From: Nannocystis bainbridge
GTDB lineage: Bacteria > Myxococcota_A > Polyangia > Nannocystales > Nannocystaceae
Direction: 5' to 3'
Length of the DNA stretch: 64,000 nucleotides
NCBI RefSeq assembly: GCF_028368995.1
Contig: NZ_JAQNDL010000002.1
Coordinates: forward strand, 545,724 to 609,723
Positions 5,589 through 58,999 of this stretch are shown here, in pieces. Every line of letters begins with the position of its first letter. Positions within the stretch are counted from its first letter, which is position 1. The notes under the pieces are model-generated. The model saw only the letters and a list, made by a program, of their open reading frames with translations, was not told where the DNA came from and did no database searches. Made by a program: the position numbers and the translations under genes.

Positions 5589-5800
5589 GCCCAGGGCCCT
5601 CGCACAGGTGCGCGCGCGAGGCGAGTTTTCGGCGCAAACCGGGGGGCGCGCGGGCGCGCAGCGCCAGGTTGACAGCCGGGCGTGTCAACTTGACCGGAGG
5701 TCGTGCCCAAATGGCGCCGGAGCGGCCTCGGAGGGGCTTTTTGACGCTGTCGGCGGGGACTTGCGCGAGCCGGGGGGGTCGCGTCATCCTCACGGAGTCC

Positions 5801-6952
5801 ATGCAGTTCTCGCGTCGTCCGCTCCACGGCCTGTGCGTCGTGCTCGCAGCCTCGCTGATGGCGCCGCCCGTGGCCGCCGCGCCAGCGAAGACCCAAGACG
5901 CGCCGGCCGGCACCGCCAGCTCGAGCCGGCCGATCGACGCCGACATGCCGGACGCCGGCGACGAGGCGATCCCCGACGACGCGCTCGAAGAGGGCCAGGT
6001 CGCGGCCGGCGCCCGCGCGACGTCCGGCGCGGGCCCGAAGACCGGCTCGGGCCTCTCGATGTCGCGCAAGCCCAATGTCGGCTCCGACACGCTGGCCCTG
6101 CAATTCGACGCCGAGGCGTCGGCCCGCTTCGACGAGGGCAACTACCGCGAGGCCGCCCGCATGTGGGTCAAGGCGCTCGACGTGCTGTCGGAGAACGAGT
6201 CGAACCACTCGGTCCGCTCGGCGATCCTGCTCAACGCGGTCACCGCCTACGAGCAGCTGTTCGTCGAGTCCGGCGACGTCGACATGCTCAAGCGCGGGCA
6301 GGTCATCATCGCGGACTACCTGCGCGCCTGCAAGAAGCGCTACGGGACCGCCTGCGAGCGCTACCCGGAGACGATGGACGCCCGCAAGCGCCTCGAGGAG
6401 CTGATCAAGCGCATCGAAGAGGTGCAGCCGAAGATCAAGAAGATCCCGCCCGAGATCGACACGGCGCCGGGCGGCCGGCCGTACAACCGGGCGATCACGC
6501 AGCCGTCGGCGCCGGCGTGGATGGGGGCGTCGTTCGCGGTCGGCGTGGCGCTGATCGGCGGCGGCGTGACGCTGGCCTACTGGGCCCGCACCAACCCGAA
6601 GTTCAAGGAGACGGACGCGGACGCGCTCGAGTCGCAGCTCATCCGCTTCCGCGACGAGACCGACACCGGCGGCACCGACGACACGGGGACCGACGGGACC
6701 GACGGGACCGACGGGACCGACGGCGCCCCGACGTCGGGGACGACGCAGATCGAGCTGGCCCCGAAGGTCCGCGGCGACCTGGCGACGGCCGCGGGGGTGT
6801 TCCTGGCCGTGGCCGGCCTCGGCCTCATCGTCATGGCGTCGGTCAAGCTGGCCAAGCACCGCCGGATCAACCGCGAGCGGGCGTCAGTGCTGTCGGTGTT
6901 CCCGGCGTTCACGCCCGGCGGCGGCGGGCTCGGGCTCACCGGGCGGTTCTAG
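5801..6952 (+). CDS. secreted/membrane-anchored hypothetical protein with (GTD)n repeat
   Basis: ATG at 5801. Signal peptide MQFSRRPLHGLCVVLAASLMAPPVAAAP, a TM segment (WMGASFAVGVALIGGGVTLAYW), a TDTGGTDDTGTDGTDGTDGTDG repeat and a second C-terminal TM. Confidence 0.7.
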   Translation: MQFSRRPLHGLCVVLAASLMAPPVAAAPAKTQDAPAGTASSSRPIDADMPDAGDEAIPDDALEEGQVAAGARATSGAGPKTGSGLSMSRKPNVGSDTLALQFDAEASARFDEGNYREAARMWVKALDVLSENESNHSVRSAILLNAVTAYEQLFVESGDVDMLKRGQVIIADYLRACKKRYGTACERYPETMDARKRLEELIKRIEEVQPKIKKIPPEIDTAPGGRPYNRAITQPSAPAWMGASFAVGVALIGGGVTLAYWARTNPKFKETDADALESQLIRFRDETDTGGTDDTGTDGTDGTDGTDGAPTSGTTQIELAPKVRGDLATAAGVFLAVAGLGLIVMASVKLAKHRRINRERASVLSVFPAFTPGGGGLGLTGRF

Positions 6953-7024
6953 GGCCTGTCCCCGCGGACAGGTGCGAGAGGGCATGTCCTGGCGGGCATG
7001 TTCTTGAGGGCAGGTGCCCGAGGG

Positions 7025-7206
7025 CATGTCCTCGGGGGCATGTCCTCGGAGCATGTCCTCGGAGCATGTCCTCGGAGCATGTCCTCGGAGCATGTCCTCG
7101 GAGCATGTCCTCGGAGCATGTCCTCGGAGCATGTCCTCGGAGCATGTCCTCGGAGCATGTCCTCGGAGCATGTCCTCGGAGCATGTCCTCGGAGCATGTC
7201 CTCGGG
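7025..7206 (+). repeat. 13-bp tandem array GCATGTCCTCGGA x ~13 (half-site of the GGACATGTCC palindrome), flanked by inverted-repeat hairpins
   Basis: Perfect units at 7038, 7051 ... 7194, with degenerate units upstream. The left flank has ggcctgtccccgcggacaggtgc and the right flank gacaggtgcgggggcacctctgtc. It is intergenic, between a stop at 6952 and the fghA start at 7319. Confidence 0.9.
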
Positions 7207-7318
7207 GACAGGTGCGGGGGCACCTCTGTCGCGGTGAGCAGGCTCGGCAGCAGCGGGCGGGCCGCGGCGCTCGCGGCGGGCTACCGCGCGGGGCCGCCCG
7301 GTGCTAGGGTCGCGGGTG

Positions 7319-25128: not shown

Positions 25129-26109
25129 ATGGCCTCGCCGTCTCGCCGCCGAATCGTGTGGTTCTCTCTCGCCTTCGCCTGCGCTTGCGGCCCCAAACCG
25201 GCTGCCGAGACGACCGACGCCACTGACTCGGCGAGCACTGCCGAGCCGGGGAGCACCACCGGCGATACCACGGTCGTCGAGACCACCTCGACGACCGGCG
25301 GTACTTCGACGACCGCCGGCTCCACCGCGCCGAACCCTACCACCGCGAGTCCCACCACGAGCGACAGCGGCGATTCGACCGGCGCCACCGGTACTCCCTT
25401 CATCACGCCTCCCGACCTCGGCGGCGGAGGCTGTCCCAGAGCCGCCGCCAGCTCCTGCGACCCATGGACGCAGAATTGCCCCTCTGACGACAAGTGCGCG
25501 CCTTCGGGGGGCGGCTGCGGCGTCTTCACCAGAACAGTCTGCCACGAGCTGCCCGACCAGCCGGTGCCGCTCGGCGGCATCTGCGAATCGGAGGGTCATC
25601 CGCTGAGCGGCCGCAATGATTGCGAGCTCGGCACCACCTGCTGGTTCATCGATCCCGAGACCTTGATCGGCACCTGCGTCAGCCTGTGCCACGGTTCCCC
25701 CGTGGCCCCCGATTGCTCGCATGTCCCCGGCACCGCCTGCGTGCTCGTCCACGACGGCCTCGACGCCCCGCTGTGCCTGCCGACCTGCGACCCCTTCGCG
25801 CTGACCTGTCCCGAAGGACATCACTGCCACCCGAGCGCGCTCACCCCCGCGCTGTTCGCCTGCACCCCCGACGCCTCGCTCGGCGCCGCCTTCGAGGCGT
25901 GCGACAAGGCCGATTGCGCCGCCGGCCTGCTGTGCAGCGAGTCGGAGGCGGCCGCCGTCGAGTGCGCCCCCGACACGAACTGCTGCACCCCGCTGTGCGA
26001 CCTCGATACCCCCGATTGCCCCGGCGTCGGCCAGGTCTGCCTGCCGTACTACGAGATGGGCCAGGCGCCCGCCGGGCTCGAGGACGTCGGACGCTGCGGC
26101 CTGCCGTGA
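25129..26109 (+). CDS. cysteine-rich repeat lipoprotein (CDPW family paralog)
   Basis: MASPSRRRIVWFSLAFACACG, then SCDPWTQNCPSDDKC, ending LEDVGRCGLP. It lies 68 bp after the previous paralog, so the two are probably an operon. Confidence 0.8.
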   Translation: MASPSRRRIVWFSLAFACACGPKPAAETTDATDSASTAEPGSTTGDTTVVETTSTTGGTSTTAGSTAPNPTTASPTTSDSGDSTGATGTPFITPPDLGGGGCPRAAASSCDPWTQNCPSDDKCAPSGGGCGVFTRTVCHELPDQPVPLGGICESEGHPLSGRNDCELGTTCWFIDPETLIGTCVSLCHGSPVAPDCSHVPGTACVLVHDGLDAPLCLPTCDPFALTCPEGHHCHPSALTPALFACTPDASLGAAFEACDKADCAAGLLCSESEAAAVECAPDTNCCTPLCDLDTPDCPGVGQVCLPYYEMGQAPAGLEDVGRCGLP

Positions 26110-27041: not shown

Positions 27042-27800
27042 TCAGAAGCGGCCGGTGAGGCTGACGAGGGCGCCGCGCGGGGTGGGGTTCATGCCGGCGG
27101 AGAAGCGACGGGCGCGGTCGTTGCGGTGGAGCAGGGGGATGAGGGTGCCGATGGCGGTGCCGGCGAGGGAGCCGAACAGGACGTCGGTCCAGAAGTGTTT
27201 GCCGGCCTCGACGCGCAGGACGGCGGTGGCGGCGGCGAGGCCCATCGCGCCCAGCCACAGGGGGACGGCGGCGCGGGCCCGCGGGTGGCGCAGAGTGAAG
27301 ATGGTGGCCCAGGCGCTCATCATGGCGAAGGCGGTCGAGGTGTGACCTGAATAAAAGGACAGGCGGGCCTCCTCGGCGTTGACGTCGCCGAGCTCGCTCT
27401 CGGGCTCGTAGCTGTAGGGCCGCGGGCGCCGGACGGCGAGCTTGACGAGGTTGTTGAGGCCGACGTTGACGGTGAGGACCTCGAACAGGACGACGACGTC
27501 GCGGGCCCAACCGGCCGCGGCGTGCCGGTAGGAGCCGGGGGCGCGCCGGCCGGTGACGAGGGTGTCGGCGAGGTCGGCGAGCACGGGGATGGCGATGGCG
27601 CCGTAGAGGAGGGCGTCGGAGGCGTGGGCGGCGGCGAGGTTCTGATTGCCGAGGACGCGCCGGTCGAGGGCGTTGATGTGGCTGCGATCGCAGGCGCTGC
27701 AGCCGGGCCAGCGCATGTCGCGAGCGGCGAGATCGATGCCGATGGCGGTGACGAGGCCGAGGGTGATGACGGGGACGTCGACGGCGGGCCGCAGGCGCAT
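27042..27800 (-). CDS. PAP2-family phosphatase (phosphatidic acid phosphatase type 2)
   Basis: Motifs KLAVRRPRPY (KxxxxxxRP), SFYSGHTS (PSGH) and RVEAGKHFWTDV (SRxxxxxHxxxD). Start taken at MRLRPAVDV. An alternative upstream start (28178) adds a signal-peptide-like MPRRLLSALLVVLTASPAAA plus a linker that is the translation of the hairpin repeats. Confidence 0.75.
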   Translation of the reverse strand: MRLRPAVDVPVITLGLVTAIGIDLAARDMRWPGCSACDRSHINALDRRVLGNQNLAAAHASDALLYGAIAIPVLADLADTLVTGRRAPGSYRHAAAGWARDVVVLFEVLTVNVGLNNLVKLAVRRPRPYSYEPESELGDVNAEEARLSFYSGHTSTAFAMMSAWATIFTLRHPRARAAVPLWLGAMGLAAATAVLRVEAGKHFWTDVLFGSLAGTAIGTLIPLLHRNDRARRFSAGMNPTPRGALVSLTGRF

Positions 27801-27902
27801 GAGGTGCGGCGGGAGTGATGGAGGAGGGGGCGGGAGCGGGGGAGCGGCGGCGGGGACGATGCCCGCGGGCGTGTCGGCGGTGGGCGGAGCGTCGGGGGCT
27901 GC

Positions 27903-28060
27903 GCTGTCGGACATGTCTTCGGGGACATGTTCGGAGGGGCCGGTGGGTGTGGTGGTCGTTTCGGACATGTCTTCGGGGACATGTACGGAAGGACCGGTCG
28001 GTGCGGCGGACTTGGCGGACATGTCTGGGGAGACATGTGCGGAGGGACCGGTGGGCTGCC
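27903..28060 (+). repeat. ~54-bp tandem repeat x3, each unit carrying a double hairpin GGACATGTCTTCGGGGACATGTWCGG
   Basis: tcggacatgtcttcggggacatgttcgg... / tcggacatgtcttcggggacatgtacgg... / ggacatgtctggggagacatgtgcgg. It lies between the divergent PAP2 gene (-) and the gene starting near 28370 (+). Confidence 0.85.
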
Positions 28061-28369
28061 AGGCGCCGAGTGACTCGCGAGTCGGGGCCAGCGCGGTCCG
28101 GGCGGGGACGAGCGGGTGGGCGGCGGCCGGCGAGGCGGTCAAGACCACGAGCAGGGCGGAGAGCAGGCGGCGCGGCATCGCGGGTCGGCCGAGTATGCCC
28201 GGTCGCGGCGGGACCGGGCAGCCGCGAGATGGTCTTCGGGACAGGTGAACCCATGCGGTCCGCGGCGAGGAGTGGCGGCTCGGGGGATTCGCGGGCGAAG
28301 CACGATGTTTGCGTCGATCGCGCGCGGCTGGCGGCGGGCGCACGCGTCGCGGTAGATTGCGTCTCTGGC

Positions 28370-29689
28370 ATGCAGACCGAGACGTACGCGGAGCTCGAGG
28401 CACGGTTGACGACGGCGGTTGCGAGCGCGGCGGGCGGGGACGCGGCGGCGGCGGAGCGGCTGGCGGACGAGCTGGAGGCGCTGGCGAAGGCGCCTCCGTG
28501 CCGCGAGGGCTGGCCGCGGCCGGGCAGCGTGGCGTACATGACGTTCGACGCGTTCCTCAAGGTCGAGGGAGCAGGCCGGGCGCCGCTGGAGCGGCTCGCG
28601 GGGCCGTTTTTGCGGGCGATCGCGGCCCACCCGGAGACGCTGGGGGTGCCGCATCGGTTCGCGCCGGCGACGATGCTCGGGCCGTCGGCGATCCCGCTGC
28701 TGCTGGCGCTGCTGGACCGCGGGCTGCGATCGACGTCGCGGGCGACGATCGAGGCGCTCGGCGAGTACAACCCGGGTAACGAGGTGGGGTTCAAGCTGGC
28801 GAGCGAAGCGGTGGCACGATTGCTGGCGTACACCGACGGTGAGGCGGTCGCGGCGGGGTTGCTGGGGCTCGAATGGAACGACGAGCGCATGTGGCTGCTG
28901 TTCCGGGTGCTGACGGAGGCGAACGCGCTGCGGCCGGGCGAGGTCGAGCCGGGGGCCGCGGCGGCGCTGCGGGGGCTGGTGGCAGGGACGGCGACGATCT
29001 CGGGCTCGGGGGCGGACCGGCTGCGGGCGCTGCTGCTGCGGGCGAAGATCATCCCGAAGTCGATGGCGCCGGCGATCCGTCTGGCGACGCTGCCGAAGCA
29101 GCTGCCGCAGACGGTGGCGGAGGCGCTGGCGCTGATGGGCACGTGGGGGCTGTCGGCGGCCGACGTGGAGGCGAAGGGTCCGGCGAGGCCGCGCGAGATC
29201 GAGGCGCTGGCGAAGCAGGTGAAGCCGCGGCTGCCGAAGGCGCTGACGCAATTGCTGGGCACGCACGCGAAGCTCGGCAACCGCGACCTCGGGCCGCCGG
29301 CGCGCATGCGGGCGCTGATCGGGGAATTGGCGGAGATGCTCGAGGAGCACGAGGAAGACGCGGACGAGGCCGAAATGGGCCGCGGGCAATACGACGTGCG
29401 TGGCTTCGATCCGGGGAAGAAGGCGATCCCGCTCGGTACCGATCCGTCCGGCGACCTGTTCTTCCTGGCGACGGGGGCGAAGTCGGCGGCCGGGACGGCG
29501 CCGGTGATCCGCTTTCGCCACGACCAGACGCTGGTGGGGACGATCGCGGCCGACTCGCTCGGCGAGTACGTGGCGCTGATCCTCGCCCGCGCGTACGCCC
29601 GCCGCGAGGGCCTGGAGTCGCAGCTGGACAGGCTCGAGGGGCGCAAGCGGACGATCGTGTCAGGGTACAAGCCGCCGAAGCGGGCGTGA
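28370..29689 (+). CDS. hypothetical protein (possible SMI1/KNR4-like C-terminal region)
   Basis: Natural composition from MQTETYAELEARL onward. The upstream part of ORF 27815.. is translated repeat DNA (TCLRGHV...). Alternative starts lie at 28229 and 28253. C-terminus reads GFDPGKKAIPLGTDPSGDLFFLATG. Confidence 0.55.
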   Translation: MQTETYAELEARLTTAVASAAGGDAAAAERLADELEALAKAPPCREGWPRPGSVAYMTFDAFLKVEGAGRAPLERLAGPFLRAIAAHPETLGVPHRFAPATMLGPSAIPLLLALLDRGLRSTSRATIEALGEYNPGNEVGFKLASEAVARLLAYTDGEAVAAGLLGLEWNDERMWLLFRVLTEANALRPGEVEPGAAAALRGLVAGTATISGSGADRLRALLLRAKIIPKSMAPAIRLATLPKQLPQTVAEALALMGTWGLSAADVEAKGPARPREIEALAKQVKPRLPKALTQLLGTHAKLGNRDLGPPARMRALIGELAEMLEEHEEDADEAEMGRGQYDVRGFDPGKKAIPLGTDPSGDLFFLATGAKSAAGTAPVIRFRHDQTLVGTIAADSLGEYVALILARAYARREGLESQLDRLEGRKRTIVSGYKPPKRA

Positions 29690-29774
29690 GCGGCCGGGTC
29701 GCACGCGAGGCGGAGGTCGGCCCACGGAGGCGACGGAGGGGGCGCGGGCGGCCGTGGGGGGTCGTGGCCGCTCG

Positions 29775-29833
29775 CTGCACAAACATGGCGATGTGTGCAA
29801 TGGCGGCTTGCACAAATGTGCCGCGGTGTGCAA
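29775..29833 (+). promoter_or_regulatory. two operator-like inverted repeats (TGCACA-N12-TGTGCA and TTGCACA-N12-TGTGCAA) directly upstream of the TetR gene
   Basis: ctgcacaaacatggcgatgtgtgcaatggcggcttgcacaaatgtgccgcggtgtgcaacc. Confidence 0.6.
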
Positions 29834-29837
29834 CCGT

Positions 29838-30779
29838 GTGACGGTGGACGGGGCGCGGGGCAACGGCGAGACGCGGGAGGCGATCCTCGACGCGACCGAT
29901 CGGCTGCTGACGAGCCGGGGCTTCCGCGAGGTGACGATGGACGACATCGCGGCCGAGGCGGGGGTCAGCCGGCGCACGATCTACATGTACTTCCCGAGCA
30001 AGATCGAGGTCGGGCTGTCGTCGATCGACCGGGTGGTGGCGCAGACGTTCGCGCGGCTGACGGCGCTGGCGAGCAGGGGCGGCGACCCGGCCGAGGTGCT
30101 GCGCGCGGTGCTGGTCGAGCGGGTGCTGCGGCGGTTCGACAGCGTGAGCGCGTATCGTCAGAGCCTGGACGAGCTGTTCGAGGCGGTGCGGCCGGCATAC
30201 ATGGCCCGAAGGACAGCCCACATGGCGCGCGAGGTGGCGCTGGTGGCGGAGGTGCTGGCGGCCGGGCGGGCGTGCGGGCGGTTCGAGCTCGACGACGCGG
30301 CGGCGACGGCCTCGTCGCTGGTAAAGGCGACGAACGCGTTCCTGCCGTACAGCCTGAGCGTGGTCGAGCTCGGGGAGCGAGCGAAGATCGAGGTGGAGGT
30401 CCGGCGCATGGCGGCGCTGCTGCTGCGGAGCGTGATGACGCCGGCGGGGCTGCACGCGGGGGCAGGGACGAAGAGCGCGGCGCAGACGAAGGGCGCGGCG
30501 CAGACGAAGGGCGCGGCGCAGACGAAGGCAGCGGCGACGACAGCGGCGACGACGAAGGCAGCGGCGAAGACTGCGGTGACGACGAAGGCAGCGGCGACGA
30601 CTGCGGCGACGAAGAAGCCTGCGGCGACGACGAAGGCCGCGGCGACGAAGAAGCCTGCGGCGAAGGGGACGACTTCGACGACGGAACCTGCGGCGACGAG
30701 GAAGCTCGCCGCGACGACGAAGACTGCGGCGAAGGTCGCGGCGCGGGTGAAGGGTCGGGGCCGCGAGCGGGCGGGGTGA
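29838..30779 (+). CDS. TetR-family transcriptional regulator with histone-H1-like Ala/Lys/Thr-rich C-terminal tail
   Basis: HTH TREAILDATDRLLTSRGFREVTMDDIAAEAGVSRRTIYMYFPSK. Tail AAQTKGAAQTKGAAQTKAAATTAATTKAAAKTAVTTKAAATTAATKKPAATTKAAATKKPAAKG. GTG start placed after the operators. Confidence 0.75.
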   Translation: MTVDGARGNGETREAILDATDRLLTSRGFREVTMDDIAAEAGVSRRTIYMYFPSKIEVGLSSIDRVVAQTFARLTALASRGGDPAEVLRAVLVERVLRRFDSVSAYRQSLDELFEAVRPAYMARRTAHMAREVALVAEVLAAGRACGRFELDDAAATASSLVKATNAFLPYSLSVVELGERAKIEVEVRRMAALLLRSVMTPAGLHAGAGTKSAAQTKGAAQTKGAAQTKAAATTAATTKAAAKTAVTTKAAATTAATKKPAATTKAAATKKPAAKGTTSTTEPAATRKLAATTKTAAKVAARVKGRGRERAG

Positions 30780-38478: not shown

Positions 38479-38572
38479 ACGACATGTCTCATGGGACATG
38501 CCTACAATGACATATCGTGAATGACATGTCGTGGAGAGCATGTCCACAAGGACATGCTCTTCGGGGCAGCCT
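38478..38572 (+). repeat. cluster of GACATGTC-type hairpin elements between convergent genes
   Basis: gacatgtctcatgggacatgcc ... atgacatatcgtgaatgacatgtcgtggagagcatgtccacaaggacatgctcttcgggg. Confidence 0.8.
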
Positions 38573-39469: not shown

Positions 39470-41317
39470 TCACGGCGCGGGCACGGGCTCGGCCCCGAGG
39501 TCGCGGGCGAGGTCGGCGAGCTCGCCGATGGGGACCTGCAGGGCGGGCAGGCGGGTGATGTCGGTCCGCGCGGCCTGGGCGATGGTCTCGCTGGCGCGCA
39601 TGACGAGGCCGCCGTGGGGATCGGCGACCACGGTGTAGCCGGCCTTGCGCAGGCGGGTGAGGCGAGCCTGGGCCGAGGGCGAGAGGTCGGTGGCGGTGAT
39701 GCGCAGGGAGGGCACGCGGCCGGGCCAGATGGCGGCGAGGTAGGCGGTGATCCGCGGGGGGTAGACGACGCCGCCGGCTGTCTTTTCGTTCAGGTGAACG
39801 TCGACCAGAGCGGGGTAGCCGCTGACGTCGCAGCGCACGGCGCCGTGGAGGTGGCTGGTCCACATGGCCTCGGGGCTGACAGGCGCGGGCCACAGGCCGT
39901 CGAACCACGCGGCGATGGCGTCGTAGCTGGGCAGGCGCTGGCCGCCGAGGGCGTCGCCGAGGCGCTGGACCTCGGCGCCGAACCGCTCGCCGCGCTCCTC
40001 ACGACGCAGGCGCAGGAAGATCGCAAGCACGGCGATCGCCGCGGCGAGGTACCACAGGCCGAACAGCAGCAGGCCGCCGCAGACGATGGCGACGAACAGC
40101 AGGCCGAGGCCGCCGCCCTGGACCTGCTGCTGGCGCCGCTCGTCGGCGTGGCGGGCCAGGAGGGCGCGGCGGGCCACGGCGAGGGCGCTGGCGGGGATCC
40201 GCCCCTCGGGCTCGGGTTCGGCGGCGTCGGGCCGGTCGGGGAGGATCGAGCGGACGGCGGCGAAGAGGGCGTGGGTGGCGACGGCGGGCTGGCCGTCGGC
40301 AGGCTCGCGCACGGCGGCGACGAGCAGCGGGGCCTCGGCCAGGCCGCCGGGCGGAGGGGCGAGCGCCGCGGTCTGGGCGGGCGCGCTCTGGCTGGCGCCA
40401 GGGCGGTTGTAGAGGATGGAGAGCAGCGAGGAGTTCGAGGGGTTGATCGCGGCGCCGGGGAGGGTGTCGCTGGCGCTGGTGCGAGCGGTCGGGTCGCGCG
40501 CGAGGCTGGCCCCGAAGACAGGTGCGTCGGCGGGCGCGGGCAGCGGGCCGGACAGGACGGCGGGGTCGAGGCGGGCGGCGGGATCGGGATCGGTGTCGGG
40601 GCCGGAGATGTCCGCAGGGACAGGTGGGGGCGGGAGGCCGGCGGGCAGGGTCTGCGCGGCGATGGGGATGTCCGCGGGGACAGGTTGGATGTCCGCGGGG
40701 ACAGGTGAGATGTCCACGAGGACAGGTGAATACGAGCTGTCTGCGGGGACATGTGAGATGTCCGCGGGGACATGTGAGATGTCCTCGGGGACAGGTGCGT
40801 CGGCGGCAGCACGTTCGCGGACGGCGTGCTCGGCGGCGGCGGGCCGGGGGCCGGGCGGGCGGCCGGGGCGTGAGCCGGGCTGGACGGCGGCGGCCGGGCC
40901 CTGCAGGGTGTCGCCGGGGTGGGGCGGGGCTTCGCCGGCGAGGTCGATGTCCTTGAGGACAGGTCGCACCGGGGCGGGGTCGGCAGGGGCGGGGGCGGGG
41001 CCGATCGAGAGCAGGGTGGTCGGCGGGACGGGCGCGGCGAGCAGGCTGGCGGCGAGCCCGGGCTGGTGGCGCACGCGGACCGGCGCGGCGAACTCGAGGT
41101 CGGGATCAGGGCTGTCTTTGGGGACAGGTGACCCCTGGACCAGGTCGCGCACGGCCTGCTGGATGGCCCGCTCGTAGAGGGCGAGGGCGTCGGCGACGGC
41201 CGGCGGCAGCCCATGCGATCGAGCGCACGCGGGGCAGTCAGCGGCGCCGCGGATGTCGTCGAGCGAGAGCGCGTGCTGACAGTGCGGGCAGCGCAACGCG
41301 AGGGTCGGAGAGAGCAC
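39470..41317 (-). CDS. zinc-ribbon / Pro-rich linker / single-TM / C-terminal domain protein
   Basis: CPHCQHALSLDDIRGAADCPACARSH (CxxC...CxxC), TM LGLLFVAIVCGGLLLFGLWYLAAAIAVLAIF. The linker contains PEDISHVPADISHVPADSSY, encoded by the hairpin repeats at 40600-40810. Confidence 0.65.
   Translation of the reverse strand: MLSPTLALRCPHCQHALSLDDIRGAADCPACARSHGLPPAVADALALYERAIQQAVRDLVQGSPVPKDSPDPDLEFAAPVRVRHQPGLAASLLAAPVPPTTLLSIGPAPAPADPAPVRPVLKDIDLAGEAPPHPGDTLQGPAAAVQPGSRPGRPPGPRPAAAEHAVRERAAADAPVPEDISHVPADISHVPADSSYSPVLVDISPVPADIQPVPADIPIAAQTLPAGLPPPPVPADISGPDTDPDPAARLDPAVLSGPLPAPADAPVFGASLARDPTARTSASDTLPGAAINPSNSSLLSILYNRPGASQSAPAQTAALAPPPGGLAEAPLLVAAVREPADGQPAVATHALFAAVRSILPDRPDAAEPEPEGRIPASALAVARRALLARHADERRQQQVQGGGLGLLFVAIVCGGLLLFGLWYLAAAIAVLAIFLRLRREERGERFGAEVQRLGDALGGQRLPSYDAIAAWFDGLWPAPVSPEAMWTSHLHGAVRCDVSGYPALVDVHLNEKTAGGVVYPPRITAYLAAIWPGRVPSLRITATDLSPSAQARLTRLRKAGYTVVADPHGGLVMRASETIAQAARTDITRLPALQVPIGELADLARDLGAEPVPAP
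40600..40810 (+). repeat. tandem hairpin units GAGATGTCC-NCGGG-GACAKGT (~19 bp, about 8 copies) embedded in frame in a coding linker
   Basis: ggatgtccgcggggacaggtgagatgtccacgaggacaggtgaa...ggggacatgtgagatgtccgcggggacatgtgagatgtcctcggggacaggtg. Confidence 0.85.
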
Positions 41318-44799: not shown

Positions 44800-45060
44800 G
44801 GGTGAGGGGCCTGTCCTTCGGGACAGGCGGGGCGCGGTGCGGACGGGGGCATGGGATGTCCCGAAGGACATGTCCTTCGGGATGAGACGCGGCGACGCTG
44901 GTGAGAGCGCGGGATGTCCCGGAGGACATGCTCTTGGGGACATTGTCAATAGTCACCGGCGTGGGATGTCCCGGAGGACATGTCCCTCAAGACATGCACG
45001 GGCCGGCGAGTCCGTGGTGGCGCGCGGACAAGCATGTCCCTCAGGACATGTCCTCAGGGC
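44800..45060 (+). repeat. BIME-like cluster of palindromic elements (core GGACATGTCC; 24-bp perfect palindrome TCCCGAAGGACATGTCCTTCGGGA)
   Basis: ggcctgtccttcgggacagg; gggatgtcccgaaggacatgtccttcgggatg; gggatgtcccggaggacatgctcttggggacat; gggatgtcccggaggacatgtccctcaagacatg; gcatgtccctcaggacatgtcctcagg. Confidence 0.9.
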
Positions 45061-45269
45061 CAGTCGTCGAGATCGAGGCCGCGGGACAGCTCGGGGTCGT
45101 CGGCCAGGAGGTCGCGCAGGGTCGCCTCGCGCAGGCCGAGGGCGCGGGCGCCGGCGCTCACGCTGGCCTGGGCGGCGAGCACGGCCCGGACCTCGCGGCG
45201 GAAGGCGAGCGGGTCGGTGCGGCGCAGGGCCAGCAGCAGCGGTTCACGAGGCTCGGCGGGCAAGGTCAC
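45054..45269 (-). CDS. possible small Fis-like HTH protein (71 aa)
   Basis: LAAQASVSAGARALGLREATLRDLLADDPEL resembles a Fis-type HTH. It could be a GC-driven spurious ORF. Confidence 0.25.
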   Translation of the reverse strand: MTLPAEPREPLLLALRRTDPLAFRREVRAVLAAQASVSAGARALGLREATLRDLLADDPELSRGLDLDDWP

Positions 45270-56429: not shown

Positions 56430-57080
56430 ATGGCGGACCCTGGTGGCGAGCCGCGGCGAGCCGCGGGGGTCCCGAGGTGGATTCCGGCGGTGCTGCGATC
56501 GATCGTGATCGGCGGCTATCCGCTGGTGGTCTACTTCGGCATGACGCGCTGGAACCCGCGCACGCTGGCGCTGGTGCTCGCGGTCGCGCTGCTGCCGGGG
56601 CTGGTGCTGCGCCTGCGCGAGGCCCGGCGCGAGGACCTGTGGCCGGTGCTGCGGGTGCCGCTGTCGCTGTTCGGGCTGTTCGCCGTGGCGGCGCTGTCGG
56701 GCGAGCAGCGGCTGTTCATGGCCCTGCCGGTGCTGGTCAACCTCGGGCTGCTCGCCAACTTCGCGGCCAGCCTGCGGGGGCCGGTGTCGCTGGTCGAACG
56801 GTTCGCGCGCCTGCAGGAGCCCGAGCTGCCGCCGGGCGGGCCGGCGTACTGCCGCACCTGGACCAAGATCTGGTGCGGGTTCTTCGTCGCCAACGCGGCG
56901 GTCAGCGCCGGCCTGGCGCTGTGGGCCCCGGCGTCGTGGTGGATGCTCTACACCGGGCTTTTGGGGTACCTGCTGATCGGGGTAATGTTCACCGTCGAGT
57001 TCATCGTCCGCAAAGTGACGTTCCGTCGCTTCGGCGACGGGCTGCCCGACCGCCTGCTCCGCCGCTTGCTCCGCGCATGA
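56430..57080 (+). CDS. integral membrane protein (cluster-associated, unknown function)
   Basis: Five to six TM helices. Its stop overlaps the next start (ATGA). Confidence 0.65.
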   Translation: MADPGGEPRRAAGVPRWIPAVLRSIVIGGYPLVVYFGMTRWNPRTLALVLAVALLPGLVLRLREARREDLWPVLRVPLSLFGLFAVAALSGEQRLFMALPVLVNLGLLANFAASLRGPVSLVERFARLQEPELPPGGPAYCRTWTKIWCGFFVANAAVSAGLALWAPASWWMLYTGLLGYLLIGVMFTVEFIVRKVTFRRFGDGLPDRLLRRLLRA

Positions 57081-58999
57081 GGTCCTTCGTCCCGCTCGTC
57101 CACACCGATCCCGCGGCGCCGGTCGCCGTGGGCGAGGCCGTGCGCACGGCGGGCGAGCTGATGCGCGACGCGCGAGCGGTGGCTGCCAGGCTGCCGGCGG
57201 CGACCGCGGGCAGCGAGGTGCTGGTGGTCTGCGGCGATCGCTACCACCTGGCAGTGACGACCCTGGCGGCGTGGCTGCGCGGCCACGCGGTCGCGCTGCC
57301 GCCCAACGCCCAGCCGGCGGCGGTGCGCGCGCTGGCCGGGCGAGCCTCGGTGGTCGCGCTGCTGCACGACTCGGACCTGGCTGACGCGCAGGACGTCCGC
57401 GAGTGGCTCCCGGAGCATGTCCCCGGGGACATGACCGATCCGACATGGCCCGAAGCGCTGGCGGCGGACCGCCGGCTGGCGGTGGTGTACACCTCGGGCA
57501 GCACCGGCGACCACCAGCCGTGCGTCAAGACGGCGGCGCAGCTGCTCGGCGAGGCGCAGACGCTGGCGGCCACGTTCGCGCTGCGGGCCGGCGAGGTGGC
57601 GCTGGCGACGGTGCCGCCGTATCACCTGTACGGGCTGCTGTTCGGGATCCTGGCGCCGCTGGCCGCCGGGGCGGCGTTCGCCCGCGAGACGCCGCTGCAC
57701 GCCGAGACGGTGGCCCACGTGGCGCGTCAGGTGGCGGCGACGGTGCTGGTCAGCACGCCGGCGCACCTGCGCGGGCTGACGGTGCTGCAGCGCGGCGACC
57801 TGCCGCCGCTGTCGCGGGTGTTCTCGTCGGGCGCGCCGCTGCCGCGGGCGACCGCGGACGAGCTGTTGACGGGGCTCGGGCTGCAGGTGACCGAGGTGTA
57901 CGGCTCGTCCGAGACCGGCGGGATCGGCTGGCGTCGGCACGAGGATGTCTCGGGGGACATGTCCCCGGAGACAGCCTGGGCGCCGCTGCCGGGGGTCGCG
58001 GCCGAGGTAGCGAGCGACGGGCGGCTGCTGCTGCGCTCGCCGTTCCTGGCCCCGGACGCGCCGGTGCCGTACCCGTGCGAGGACCGGATCGAGCTCGACG
58101 CGCGCGGCGGGTTCCACCTGCGCGGGCGGCTCGACGGGGTGGTGAAGATCGCCGGCAAGCGGGTGGCGGTCGCCGAGGTCGAGCAGCGGCTGCTGGCGCT
58201 GACGGCGGTGGCCGACGCGGCGGTGGTGGCGGTCGAGTCGCCGGGGGCCCGCGGGCACGAGCTGGTGGCCGCGATCGTGGGCCGCGAGGCCGGGCGCGAC
58301 GCCGGCGAGCTGGTCGCGGAGCTGCGCCGGGCGCTGCTGCCGTGGTTCGACCCGGTGGTGGTGCCGCGGCGGATCAAGGTGGTGCCGGCGCTGCCGCGCG
58401 AGCCGAGCGGGAAGCTGACGCGGCGCAAGCTGCACGCGCTGCTCGGGCTCGACGCGCCAGCGGGCGCGGAGAATGAAGGCACGGCGGCCGGGCGAGGTGG
58501 CGCGAGGGACATGTCCGCGGGGACAGCCAACGAGGCCGCAGGCGGCGTGAAGGACATGTCCTCGGGGACAGCCGCGGCGGGCACGCCGGCGACCGAAGGA
58601 GATGGCGCGAGGGACATGTCCTCCGGGACATCGAGTGAGACCCGCGCGTTCGCGCTGCGCGGGCACGTGCGGCGCGACGACGGCGAGGCTTCGGTGCACG
58701 AGGTCGAGGTCGGGGTGCCGGTCGACCTGGCGTTCTTCCGCGGGCACTTCGAGGGGCGGCCGGTGCTGCCGGGGGTGGCGCAGCTGACGGCGCTGGTGGT
58801 GCCGCAGGTGGCGGCGCTGCGGCCGGAGCTGGGGCGGCTGCGGCGGGCGGCGCGGCTCAAGTTCACCCGGCCGATCGCGCCGGGCGACGCGCTGGTGCTG
58901 CGGCTCGAGGTCCGCGGGACGCAGGTTCGCTTCTCGCTGGCGCGCGCGGGCGAGGTGGTCACGGCGGGCGCGCTCGAGTACGACGCGCGCGGTGGTTGA
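57077..58999 (+). CDS. AMP-dependent synthetase/ligase fused to C-terminal FabZ/FabA-like hotdog dehydratase
   Basis: AMP-binding motif VVYTSGSTGDHQPC and EVYGSSETGG. C-terminal FFRGHFEGRPVLPGVAQLTAL. The interdomain linker carries RDMSAGT/KDMSSGT/RDMSSGT copies of the palindromic element. Confidence 0.8.
   Translation: MRSFVPLVHTDPAAPVAVGEAVRTAGELMRDARAVAARLPAATAGSEVLVVCGDRYHLAVTTLAAWLRGHAVALPPNAQPAAVRALAGRASVVALLHDSDLADAQDVREWLPEHVPGDMTDPTWPEALAADRRLAVVYTSGSTGDHQPCVKTAAQLLGEAQTLAATFALRAGEVALATVPPYHLYGLLFGILAPLAAGAAFARETPLHAETVAHVARQVAATVLVSTPAHLRGLTVLQRGDLPPLSRVFSSGAPLPRATADELLTGLGLQVTEVYGSSETGGIGWRRHEDVSGDMSPETAWAPLPGVAAEVASDGRLLLRSPFLAPDAPVPYPCEDRIELDARGGFHLRGRLDGVVKIAGKRVAVAEVEQRLLALTAVADAAVVAVESPGARGHELVAAIVGREAGRDAGELVAELRRALLPWFDPVVVPRRIKVVPALPREPSGKLTRRKLHALLGLDAPAGAENEGTAAGRGGARDMSAGTANEAAGGVKDMSSGTAAAGTPATEGDGARDMSSGTSSETRAFALRGHVRRDDGEASVHEVEVGVPVDLAFFRGHFEGRPVLPGVAQLTALVVPQVAALRPELGRLRRAARLKFTRPIAPGDALVLRLEVRGTQVRFSLARAGEVVTAGALEYDARGG

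What the first reader, a model, noticed from the sequence alone, without database searches (positions are those of the whole stretch)
27903..28060. 54-bp tandem repeat x3 of double-hairpin units in a divergent promoter region; N-termini of both flanking genes are ambiguous because of it
The repeat translates cleanly in several frames. It reads PTGPSAHVSPDMS / PTGPSVHVPEDMS / PTGPSEHVPEDMS on the minus strand, fused to a plausible signal peptide upstream of the PAP2 domain. It reads TCLRGHV... on the plus strand. Either the PAP2 protein carries a signal peptide plus a repeat-derived linker, or the repeats are 5'-UTR or promoter DNA.
Basis: partly seen in the sequence, partly recalled or inferred. 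Interest (0 to 1): 0.5.

Follow-up and report, generated by a model that had tools for sequence, protein, structure and literature searches.

The report
Translated hairpin repeat in phosphatase linker
The 54-bp triple repeat is real, but it is a translated spacer inside a membrane phosphatase gene rather than promoter DNA, and it is built from a 14-bp palindrome (TGTCC-N4-GGACA) that is scattered through Nannocystis genomes and that I could not find described in the papers searched.

Summary
Observation confirmed: 27905-28055 is a 54-bp repeat of about 2.8 copies, 82-86% identical. Each unit forms one hairpin, not two.

Placement not supported. The window is from Nannocystis bainbridge. The repeat lies inside the PAP2 phosphatase gene (27042-28178, minus strand), 120-275 bp downstream of the start codon. 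It sits between a signal peptide conserved in five Nannocystis orthologues and the first membrane helix. The coding frame signal (GC3 0.9-1.0) runs on both sides of it. The real divergent spacer is 28179-28369, and the plus-strand gene starts at 28370. The RefSeq model starts at an ATG supplied by the repeat (28022), which truncates the signal peptide.

Each unit carries a near-perfect copy of TGTCC-N4-GGACA. The window holds 26 perfect copies against 0.05 expected, and the spacer is always 4 bases. The family is REP-like: enriched 6.7x between convergent genes and not enriched in divergent promoters. About 40% of clusters lie in frame inside genes, in loops and linkers, somewhat like Rickettsia palindromic elements. 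Rare codons (CAT, CCT, GAA) are always used where they complete the palindrome, so the constraint is on nucleotides. The function of the family remains inferred.

The parts
27905..28066 (-). 54-bp tandem repeat of three units (28066-28013, 28012-27959, 27958-27905). It is translated as three 18-residue spacer units ...PTGPSxHV(P/S)(E/P)DMS...
   Evidence: TRF period 54, 2.8 copies, score 204. Gap-free alignment at 86% column identity. Translation.
27914..27927 (.). 14-bp palindrome unit with one mismatch (TGTCTTCGGGGACA) in repeat unit 3. It forms the stem-loop of that unit.
   Evidence: Pattern search with <=1 mismatch. Fold.
27968..27981 (.). 14-bp palindrome unit with one mismatch (TGTCTTCGGGGACA) in repeat unit 2.
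28022..28035 (.). Degenerate 14-bp unit with two mismatches (TGTCTGGGGAGACA) in repeat unit 1.
   Evidence: Sequence. Hairpin in the fold.
27042..28178 (-). PAP2-family phosphatase gene of 378 codons, with the full-length start at ATG 28178-28176.
   Evidence: Pfam PF01569, E = 4e-22, residues 229-353. GC3 profile. Orthologue alignment A1.
28119..28178 (-). Signal peptide MPRRLLSALLVVLTASPAAA|HP, with n-region, hydrophobic core and an AAA cleavage motif.
   Evidence: Read from the sequence. Conserved in the orthologues. AF2 helix at residues 2-13. No signal-peptide predictor was available.
28020..28022 (-). Internal ATG inside GGACATGTC, used as the start of the 326-aa RefSeq model. It is probably a false start.
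   Evidence: P0001 is 100% identical and begins MSAKSAAP.
28179..28369 (.). The true divergent intergenic spacer (191 bp) between the PAP2 gene and the plus-strand gene.
   Evidence: GC3 profiles. Both starts are confirmed by orthologues.
28192..28197 (-). -10-like hexamer CATACT, 13 nt upstream of the PAP2 ATG. It is conserved as GGCATACTCG in all Nannocystis orthologues, 8-13 nt from the ATG.
   Evidence: Sequence comparison. The consensus promoter scan found nothing, so this is an inference.
28370..29689 (+). Divergent neighbouring gene of 439 aa, with a weak SUKH/SMI1 match.
   Evidence: Aligns from Met1 over all 439 aa with the N. pusilla orthologue at 75% identity. Pfam E = 0.0028, below the cut-off.

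Best explanation
SHOWN. The 54-bp x3 repeat is coding DNA. It sits in the 5' part of the PAP2 phosphatase gene (27042-28178, minus strand). It encodes three copies of an 18-residue Pro/Thr/Ser/Asp/Glu-rich spacer between a conserved signal peptide and the first transmembrane helix.

SHOWN. At the DNA level each copy carries a slightly degenerate copy of the 14-bp palindrome TGTCC-N4-GGACA. When two such units abut they give GGACATGTCC. This palindrome is the unit of an extremely over-represented dispersed repeat family of Nannocystis and its close uncultured relatives.

SHOWN FOR THE FAMILY. The spacer is strictly 4 nt, the arms are invariant and the loop is variable. Units commonly form head-to-tail arrays with a 14-bp period. 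The family is strongly enriched just downstream of genes, above all between convergent genes, and is not enriched in divergent promoter spacers. About 40% of clusters lie inside genes, in frame, in loops and linkers. There the array periods are mostly multiples of three (21, 27, 45, 54, 60 bp).

INFERRED. The family is REP-like, meaning hairpin-forming DNA or RNA that acts at, or is tolerated at, transcript 3' ends. It has also colonised permissive protein segments, as Rickettsia palindromic elements have. The PAP2 linker is one such permissive site. It has carried these units since before Nannocystis split from its relatives. Slippage or unequal exchange between units repeatedly produces local tandem arrays. 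The 54-bp array is the N. bainbridge version, and an uncultured relative has independent 27-bp arrays at the same site. For the PAP2 protein the product is most likely a disordered spacer. The ATG inside GGACATGTCC misleads gene callers into a truncated model.
For: Repeat is coding.
- GC3 in the PAP2 frame is 0.90-1.00 at 28178-28090 and below 27860. It drops to 0.67 only within the repeat.
- The signal peptide and start codon are conserved in 5 orthologues, and the frame stays open through linkers of 102-142 codons.
- The divergent gene starts at 28370.
- AF2 gives no secondary structure and pLDDT of about 30 for residues 14-130.

The family is real.
- TGTCCNNNNGGACA occurs 26 times in the window against 0.05 expected, and 52 times against 1.78 with <=1 mismatch.
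- GGACAT/ATGTCC is the most over-represented hexamer in the window.
- In 664 kb of Nannocystis DNA the spacer is N4 in 235 sites, against 0-2 sites for any other length from 0 to 8. The 14-bp period is seen 149 times.
- 66 of the 99 stretches returned by a scan of 185,579 species' genomes are Nannocystis.
- Extra sites number 2.5 per 10 kb in Nannocystis loci and 0.08 per 10 kb in the other loci.

Context.
- Convergent spacers hold 19.4% of clusters against 2.9% of random positions.
- Tandem spacers hold 23.6% against 7.3%, at a median relative position of 0.29 from the upstream stop.
- Divergent spacers hold 5.2% against 4.9%.
- Genes hold 42% against 80%.

In-frame colonisation.
- In the AMP-ligase/dehydratase gene 57077-58999 the units sit in two loops and in the interdomain linker. 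Nannocystis species carry 0-5 RDMSxGT copies there, and distant homologues carry none.
- ORF 39470-41296 carries a 21-bp x6 array that reads HVPADIS.
- In-gene spacings other than 14 bp are 80% multiples of three.
- The frames used are DMS 27, GHV 7 and TCP 2.

Constraint is on nucleotides.
- In PAP2 linkers, every [PSH]-V-P-x-[DA] uses a T-ending codon before GTC: CCT, TCT or CAT. Their background use is 2.8%, 0.6% and 9.4%.
- VP dipeptides outside the motif use C-ending codons.
- Linker third positions are 15-25% A+T against 4.8% background.

Lineage-specific arrays.
- No 54-bp array exists in the other Nannocystis PAP2 linkers.
- An uncultured relative has independent 27-bp x3 arrays, one at 100% identity, on the same core.
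Against: - There are no expression data, so the TSS, the translation start and the 3'-end role are all inferred.
- The gene map used for the context statistics is my own crude GC3-based caller, with imprecise starts. Most loci were ascertained through the motif itself, so the fractions are approximate.
- The units lack a U-tract, so they are not canonical intrinsic terminators (base frequencies).
- The strict 5-4-5 geometry with invariant arms and no covariation beyond the arms would suit recognition by a dimeric protein as well as a hairpin.
- About 40-50% of copies lie inside genes, which is far more than for classical REPs.
- The cores have persisted in the PAP2 linker over deep divergence. 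That could mean they have a function there rather than being passengers.
Confidence: 0.75

Rival explanations
1. The repeat is untranslated 5'-UTR or promoter DNA. On this view the PAP2 protein starts at or after the repeat, as in the RefSeq model that starts at 28022.
For: RefSeq annotates the N. bainbridge protein as 326 aa starting inside repeat unit 1, and the N. radixulma protein as 321 aa starting inside a core. GC3 inside the repeat is only about 0.67.
Against: The coding signal resumes upstream of the repeat in the same frame (GC3 0.90-1.00 at 28178-28090). The signal peptide, its ATG and an upstream CATACT box are conserved in five orthologues. The frame stays open across linkers whose lengths differ by multiples of three. 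More distant homologues all have signal peptide, linker and PAP2 domain in that order.
Confidence: 0.04
2. The repeat is selected at the protein level. On this view GHVPEDMS / PVPxDS is a functional peptide motif of the exported linker, for example a His/Asp/Met metal-binding, processing or glycosylation site, and the DNA palindrome is a by-product.
For: The peptide motif recurs about three times at similar positions in every Nannocystis orthologue, and as PVPxDS in relatives at 44-48% identity. In genes the DMS frame is preferred, 27 of 36 sites.
Against: The same DNA unit is abundant in non-coding DNA, including a 13-bp x14 array. It occurs in unrelated proteins, including a cytoplasmic AMP-ligase, and in all three frames. 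Rare T- and A-ending codons are used every time they complete the palindrome, although preferred synonymous codons would encode the same peptide.
Confidence: 0.08
3. The 14-bp units are double-stranded binding sites for an abundant dimeric DNA-binding protein with a CRP/FNR-like 5-4-5 operator geometry, or for a nucleoid-associated protein. On this view the PAP2 repeat is an intragenic array of such sites.
For: The spacer is strictly 4 bp, the 5-bp arms are invariant, the spacer sequence is free, and there is no covariation that extends the stem. Perfect and one-mismatch sites are equally frequent, 26 and 26, which suggests that perfect sites are maintained.
Against: There is no enrichment in divergent promoter spacers (1.06x), but strong enrichment downstream of genes. 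Arrays of up to 14 abutting units and thousands of inferred copies are unlike a regulon. No candidate protein was identified.
Confidence: 0.15
4. The three hairpins have a cis-regulatory role in the PAP2 mRNA. They might slow ribosomes just after the signal peptide to aid membrane targeting, or attenuate or stabilise the transcript.
For: The mRNA strand folds into three stable hairpins (z = -3.1). Rare codons cluster 40-95 codons after the start. Hairpin cores persist at this position in orthologues and in distant homologues.
Against: The same units occur in cytoplasmic proteins' loops and in non-coding DNA, so no PAP2-specific role is needed. Copy number and spacing differ freely between species. 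No expression data exist.
Confidence: 0.1

Closest known systems
REP / BIME elements (repetitive extragenic palindromes of Enterobacteria, Pseudomonas and others)
   Same: Both are short palindromic stem-loop units with a shared consensus and high copy number. Both are often clustered in arrays and lie preferentially just after gene ends. In both, the loop varies while the stem is conserved. The REP definition used here is from PMC12306157.
   Different: The unit is only 14 bp, with a rigid 5-4-5 geometry. It has no GTAG or CGTC tag (the tag families are those of PMC3733652, whose title and abstract I saw). Arrays are head-to-tail abutting units rather than units in alternating orientation. 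About 40-50% of copies lie inside genes, whereas REPs 'seldom overlap' coding regions. No RAYT transposase was looked for.
Rickettsia palindromic elements (RPE; Ogata et al. 2000 and 2002, as summarised in PMC10969869)
   Same: Both are palindromic repeats found in frame inside many unrelated protein-coding genes. They add peptide segments in positions compatible with the fold, such as loops and linkers.
   Different: RPEs are elements of about 100-150 bp that encode a conserved peptide of their own, in a reduced intracellular genome. Here the unit is 14 bp, must combine into multiples of three, is mostly extragenic, and lives in a genome whose orthologous contigs are 11-13 Mb. No terminal repeats or target-site duplications were seen.
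DNA uptake sequences (Neisseria DUS, Haemophilus USS) and HIP1 of cyanobacteria (comparison from my own knowledge)
   Same: All are lineage-specific short oligomers over-represented by orders of magnitude. All occur both in genes, with frame preferences, and between genes. DUS often occur as inverted pairs after genes, and HIP1 is itself a palindrome.
   Different: DUS and USS are asymmetric 9-12-mers with variable pair spacing, tied to competence. HIP1 is a contiguous 8-mer. Neither forms 14-bp-period arrays or has a fixed 4-nt gap. No link to competence or methylation was tested here.
Intragenic coding tandem repeats / PARCEL-type palindromic coding repeats (PMC2996958; title and abstract only)
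   Same: A tandem repeat inside a gene encodes a variable, low-complexity exported segment. The GGACATGTCC palindrome reads the same (D-M-S) from either strand.
   Different: PARCELs are long amphipathic repeat domains spread horizontally among Mollicutes and other microbes. Here the coding repeat is a local expansion of a genome-wide non-coding motif.

Membership tests
PAP2 superfamily phosphatase (PF01569), the host gene | Profile match above the curated cut-off, and the three catalytic motifs KX6RP, PSGH and SRX5HX3D | tested here: met
   78.7 bits against a cut-off of 27.2, E = 4e-22. K246...R253 P254, S277 G278 H279 and R322...H328...D332 are invariant in alignment A1.
Sec-type signal peptide (N-terminus of the PAP2 protein) | Basic n-region, hydrophobic core and small-x-small cleavage motif | tested here: inconclusive
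   MPRR / LLSALLVVLTA / SPAAA|HP is read directly from the sequence and is conserved in the orthologues. No signal-peptide predictor was available.
REP (repetitive extragenic palindrome) | Short (14-40 nt) palindromic unit able to form a stem-loop, with a common consensus | tested here: met
   TGTCC-N4-GGACA, often extended to ACATGTCC-N4-GGACATGT. The hairpins fold with z = -6.5.
REP (repetitive extragenic palindrome) | High copy number in the genome | tested here: inconclusive
   There are 26 perfect copies in 64 kb against 0.05 expected, and 1.7-4 per 10 kb in other Nannocystis loci. Whole genomes could not be counted. Extrapolation gives a few thousand copies.
REP (repetitive extragenic palindrome) | Predominantly extragenic, near gene 3' ends | tested here: inconclusive
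   The 3'-end bias is clear: convergent spacers are enriched 6.7x, and the median relative position in tandem spacers is 0.29. However, 42% of clusters and 14 of the 26 window sites lie inside genes.
REP (repetitive extragenic palindrome) | GTAG or CGTC tetranucleotide tag at one end (the two large REP superfamilies) | tested here: not met
   Flank base frequencies show R-C-M before TGTCC and K-G-Y after GGACA. Neither GTAG nor CGTC is present.
REP (repetitive extragenic palindrome) | Cognate RAYT (IS200/IS605-type Y1 transposase) flanked by the repeats | not tested
RPE / MITE inserted in genes | In-frame presence in unrelated protein-coding genes at structurally permissive sites | tested here: met
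   Seen in the PAP2 linker, the AMP-ligase loops and linker, the ORF 39470-41296 array, and 36 further GGACATGTCC sites in coding sequence.
RPE / MITE inserted in genes | Discrete element of about 100-400 bp with terminal inverted repeats and target-site duplications | tested here: not met
   The unit is 14 bp. Flanks beyond +/-3 nt show no conservation.
Intrinsic (rho-independent) terminator | GC-rich hairpin followed by a U-tract | tested here: not met
   The hairpin is present, but there is no T-run. The terminator scan found 0 sites in 27800-28450, and T is <=0.25 at positions +19 to +29 of the site profile.
CRP/FNR-type operator | 5-4-5 or 5-6-5 palindrome located in promoter regions of a regulon | tested here: not met
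   The geometry fits. Divergent promoter spacers are not enriched, 5.2% against 4.9%, and units form long arrays.

The most novel reading that the evidence does not exclude
TGTCC-N4-GGACA is an undescribed class of bacterial dispersed repeat. It would be a 14-bp palindrome with rigid geometry, confined to Nannocystis and close relatives, and present in an inferred few thousand copies per genome. A dedicated protein or a hairpin-dependent copying process would maintain it at the nucleotide level. It would mark or shape transcript 3' ends, and it would routinely expand in frame inside genes. In that way it would act as a source of new linker and loop peptides in a large free-living genome, a miniature counterpart of the Rickettsia palindromic elements.
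Probability: 0.35. Interest if true: 0.7.

Novelty: new variant of a known kind. Interest (0 to 1): 0.5.

Why it matters
For annotation. The ATG inside GGACATGTCC attracts gene callers. Two of six deposited orthologues of this one gene lose their signal peptide that way, so start-codon errors may be systematic across Nannocystis genomes.

For biology. If the whole-genome picture matches this sample, Nannocystis carries a very abundant REP-like palindrome that also lives in frame inside proteins. That gives a tractable free-living system for two questions. How do short hairpin repeats spread and persist? How does 'selfish' or structural DNA become protein sequence? The strict 5-4-5 geometry predicts a specific binding or processing protein that could be fished out directly.

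For the PAP2 gene itself the finding is ordinary: a variable, probably disordered spacer.

Tried and rejected
- Rfam at gathering thresholds found no known RNA family anywhere in the window. ARAGORN found no tRNA or tmRNA.
- The sigma-70 and terminator consensus scan of 27800-28450 found nothing. The conserved CATACT box is therefore only a comparative inference.
- Literature. GGACATGTCC turns up mainly in papers on the p53 response element, which is a coincidence of sequence. I found no paper on palindromic or REP-like repeats in Nannocystis or myxobacteria. The RepRanger REP survey does not mention Myxococcota.
- A scan of viral contigs for two abutting units gave 0 hits, so there is no sign of a phage origin.
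- I tested whether GGACATGTCC mainly marks true gene starts, as an 'ATG TCC' start context. About 20 of 122 sites have downstream coding in the ATG frame, but several of these are internal linkers. I rejected this as the main role.
- Covariation beyond the 5-bp arms: the outer pair is complementary in 55% of sites against about 47% expected. There is no support for a longer selected stem. The A/T at those positions mostly reflects abutting units.
- The hexamer GGACAT alone is confounded by ordinary GAC-AT[CG] codons. I therefore used the 8-mer, 10-mer and 14-mer patterns instead.
- TRF on the orthologous linkers looked for a shared 54-bp array and found none.

Full report
1. THE OBSERVATION

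The window has 72% GC. TRF reports 27905-28055 as a repeat of period 54 with 2.8 copies, 82% matches, no indels and score 204. Read on the minus strand, the three units (28066-28013, 28012-27959, 27958-27905) align without gaps at 86% mean column identity. The 43-bp block CC.ACCGG.CC.TCCG.ACATGTC.CC..AGACATGTCCG is nearly invariant, and an 11-bp segment is variable.

Each unit contains two GGACATGT octamers 14 bp apart. Because GACATGTC is self-complementary, the two pair with each other. The result is one hairpin per unit, with a stem of 8-11 bp and a 4-nt loop. As single-stranded DNA the fold scores z = -6.5, and as the mRNA strand z = -3.1. 'Double hairpin' is therefore not accurate. Tandem repeats as such are frequent in this window (176 TRF rows).

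2. WHERE THE REPEAT LIES

The best protein match is a PAP2 family phosphatase of Nannocystis bainbridge at 100% identity. The long minus-strand ORF contains an ATG at 28178. It is followed by MPRRLLSALLVVLTASPAAAHP, which has a basic n-region, a hydrophobic core and an AAA motif. The repeat follows, then a Pro-rich stretch, then a PAP2 domain (Pfam PF01569, E = 4e-22, residues 229-353).

Third-codon-position GC in that frame behaves as follows:
- 0.90-1.00 from 28178 to about 28090
- about 0.67 inside the repeat
- 0.9-1.0 from about 27860 to the stop
- no frame signal upstream of 28178 (0.53-0.70)

Orthologues from N. pusilla (three assemblies), N. exedens and N. radixulma show the same layout. 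All begin M[SP]R[CR]L...AAHPL. All have a conserved GGCATACTCG, a -10-like CATACT, 8-13 nt upstream of that ATG. All keep the frame open through linkers of 102-142 codons. More distant homologues also have signal peptide, Pro-rich linker and PAP2 domain in that order. An AlphaFold2 model has mean pLDDT 56.6 from a shallow alignment. It gives a helix for residues 2-13, no secondary structure and pLDDT of about 30 for residues 14-130, and helices at pLDDT 70-90 in the PAP2 domain.

The plus-strand neighbour starts at 28370. Its 439 residues align from Met1 to the end with the 439-residue N. pusilla orthologue at 75% identity. Its frame's GC3 rises only after about 28400.

The repeat therefore occupies codons ~40-95 of the PAP2 gene, and the real divergent spacer is 28179-28369. 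The practical ambiguity is genuine. The RefSeq model (326 aa) starts at the ATG at 28022, inside GGACATGTC of repeat unit 1. The N. radixulma model (321 aa) starts at an ATG inside a core.

3. THE CORE BELONGS TO A DISPERSED FAMILY

GGACATGT occurs 26 times in the window against 0.77 expected. GGACAT/ATGTCC is the most over-represented hexamer.

Spacing analysis on 664 kb of Nannocystis DNA shows what the unit is:
- TGTCC-N4-GGACA occurs 235 times, against 0-2 for any other spacer from 0 to 8.
- GGACA immediately followed by TGTCC occurs 135 times. This is GGACATGTCC, the junction of two abutting units.
- GGACA-N9-GGACA, a 14-bp period, occurs 149 times.

In the window the perfect 14-mer occurs 26 times against 0.05 expected. 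With one mismatch allowed it occurs 52 times against 1.78. The one-mismatch set includes 27914-27927 and 27968-27981 of the finding. The loop is variable, pyrimidine-rich then purine-rich. Position -1 is A or C, and position +1 is T or G. Nothing is conserved further out, and neither a GTAG nor a CGTC tag is present.

4. TAXONOMIC RANGE

I scanned one genome per species for 185,579 species with GGACATGTCCNNNGGGACA. Of these, 66 come from about ten Nannocystis species or MAGs, and the rest are single hits in unrelated taxa. Beyond the ascertained site, Nannocystis loci carry 2.5 further units per 10 kb. The other loci carry 0.08. Orthologue loci that were not chosen through the motif carry 1.7 per 10 kb, and the window carries 4.1.

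Three metagenomic contigs encode PAP2 homologues of 44-48% identity. They also carry the unit in the variant CTGTCC-N4-GGACAG. No viral contig has two abutting units.

5. GENOMIC CONTEXT

I called genes with a simple GC3-based procedure, which gives precise stops and approximate starts. I then compared 191 clusters of units with 20,000 random positions:
- inside genes: 42% against 80%
- convergent (3'-3') spacers: 19.4% against 2.9%
- tandem spacers: 23.6% against 7.3%, at a median relative position of 0.29 from the upstream stop
- divergent (5'-5') spacers: 5.2% against 4.9%

In the window, every intergenic cluster begins 1-63 bp after a stop codon: 3541, 6957, 38541, 44812, 45951, 59879 and 62904. 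This is the distribution of a 3'-end element such as a REP, not of an operator. No T-run follows the units.

6. UNITS INSIDE GENES

Of 122 GGACATGTCC sites, 36 lie in confidently coding DNA. They read D-M-S in 27 cases, G-H-V in 7 and T-C-P in 2.

In the AMP-binding/FabA-like fusion gene 57077-58999 (Pfam), alignment with 17 homologues places the units in two surface loops and in the interdomain linker. That linker holds between 0 and 5 RDMSxGT copies among Nannocystis species, and it is short and motif-free in distant homologues. In two homologues the reading frame runs into a downstream unit and ends ...SDMSGG[ST]CV.

ORF 39470-41296 carries a 21-bp x6 array that reads HVPADIS. Within genes, spacings other than 14 bp are 80% multiples of three.

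7. NUCLEOTIDE-LEVEL OR PEPTIDE-LEVEL CONSTRAINT

Background codon use in 20 window genes is as follows: CCT is 2.8% of Pro codons, TCT 0.6% of Ser, CAT 9.4% of His, GAA 5.9% of Glu, and T3 + A3 together are 4.8%.

I defined the PAP2 linkers at the protein level in nine sequences. Every [P/S/H]-V-P-x-[D/A] uses the T-ending codon that completes TGTCC, and Val is GTC. VP dipeptides outside the motif use C-ending codons. Linker third positions are 15-25% A+T.

The peptide could be encoded with preferred codons, yet it never is. The constraint, or the copying process, therefore acts on the nucleotides.

8. HISTORY OF THIS ARRAY

All Nannocystis orthologues have about three cores (GGACATGnCCCGAGGACATGTCC, reading GHVPEDMS) at comparable positions, while the spacers differ in sequence and length. 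TRF finds no 54-bp array in them.

In N. bainbridge the units share an extended PTGPS.HV prefix, so the 54-bp periodicity is a lineage-specific duplication or homogenisation. An uncultured relative has independent 27-bp arrays on the same core, one with three copies at 100% identity and one with 3.3 copies at 87%.

I infer that the linker is a permissive site where the units persist and repeatedly seed local tandem expansion. The likely mechanism is slippage or unequal exchange between the short direct and inverted repeats.

9. INTERPRETATION AND ITS LIMITS

Shown:
- The repeat is coding.
- The annotation start is probably wrong.
- The core is a member of a highly over-represented, lineage-restricted 14-bp palindrome family.
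- That family has a 3'-end bias and a large in-frame intragenic fraction.

Inferred:
- The family acts as, or is tolerated as, hairpins at transcript 3' ends.
- The intragenic copies are passengers that yield disordered peptide.
- Slippage made the array.

Not excluded:
- A dimeric DNA-binding protein may recognise the units. The rigid 5-4-5 geometry, invariant arms and equal numbers of perfect and one-mismatch sites would fit.
- The hairpins may have a local mRNA-level role in PAP2 expression.

The context statistics rest on about 0.66 Mb of sequence, mostly ascertained through the motif, and on a crude gene caller.

10. COMPARISON AND NOVELTY

The family works like REP/BIME elements in being palindromic, having a consensus, being abundant and lying near 3' ends. 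It fails or leaves open several REP criteria: the tag, extragenic exclusivity and the RAYT association.

It resembles Rickettsia palindromic elements in living in frame inside unrelated genes (PMC10969869). It is ten times shorter and has no peptide of its own.

It shares lineage-specific over-representation and frame bias with DUS/USS and HIP1, a comparison from my own knowledge.

I found no description of it in the searchable literature.

As submitted, the finding is an ordinary variable linker. The motif behind it is a new variant of a known kind of element and deserves a whole-genome follow-up.

Noticed in passing
window 6957-7210: A 13-bp repeat (GCATGTCCTCGGA) of 13.9 copies at 98% identity lies in the spacer after gene 5690-6952. 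It is bracketed by perfect 14-bp units at 6957 and 7197. It is a near-perfect, probably slippage-prone derivative of the same family, and 13 is not a multiple of three.
   Followed up: partly
window 40609-40961 (ORF 39470-41296, minus strand): A 21-bp x6 array of the same unit lies inside a 608-aa protein with no Pfam match and reads (H/P)VPADIS repeatedly. The N. exedens orthologue (L001 3801-5672) also carries units (L001 4163-4517).
   Followed up: partly
window 57077-58999: An AMP-binding + FabA/ApeI-like fusion protein has units in two loops (about 57418 and about 57946-57973) and three RDMSxGT copies in the interdomain linker (58507-58630). Copy number in that linker varies from 0 to 5 among Nannocystis species.
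   Followed up: yes
window 44812-45062: A cluster of 5 perfect and 2 imperfect units starts 20 bp after the stop of a 903-aa ORF whose likely N. exedens counterpart is an M16 peptidase. It includes a perfect 22-bp palindrome, CCCGAAGGACATGTCCTTCGGG, at 44860-44881.
   Followed up: no
window 38485-38554: Units lie between two convergent genes (stops at 38478 and 38576), next to a 14-bp-period stretch AATGACAT(A/G)TCGTG at 38506-38533. This is one of the lowest-GC spots of the window (51%).
   Followed up: no
window 28020-28022; L004 about 10020: The RefSeq PAP2 models of N. bainbridge and N. radixulma start at ATGs that belong to the palindrome core (GGACATG) and so lose the signal peptide. Because the motif is abundant and contains ATG, similar false starts may be common in Nannocystis annotations.
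   Followed up: partly
window 28192-28197 and orthologous positions in L001-L004 and L107: A conserved GGCATACTCG lies 8-13 nt upstream of the PAP2 ATG. This suggests a leaderless or very short-leader mRNA. No Shine-Dalgarno sequence is evident.
   Followed up: no
window 30467-30735 (3' end of gene 29754-30779): Nested 18/30/36-bp repeats encode an Ala/Lys/Thr-rich tail (AAQTKGAAQTKG..KAAATTAATTK) at the C-terminus of a regulator that looks TetR-like from its N-terminal sequence. TetR_N genes lie near the PAP2 gene in L001 and L004. The repeats are unrelated to the palindrome family.
   Followed up: no
P0123 and P0128 (homologues of 57077-58999): Their C-termini end ...LSDMSGG(S/T)CV. The reading frame runs into a palindrome unit downstream of the usual stop, so 3'-end units can become C-terminal extensions.
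   Followed up: no
L024 and L046 (Kribbella spp.): These two unrelated actinobacterial loci each hold 5-6 GGACATGT octamers and two 14-bp units within 8 kb, more than the single hits seen in nearly all other non-Nannocystis loci. This may be a local repeat.
   Followed up: no
window 25807-25820 (gene 25564-26109): A perfect unit is read in the rare T-C-P frame (CPEGH) inside a Cys-rich secreted protein. The Cys codon there may have been co-opted, or the match may be coincidental.
   Followed up: no
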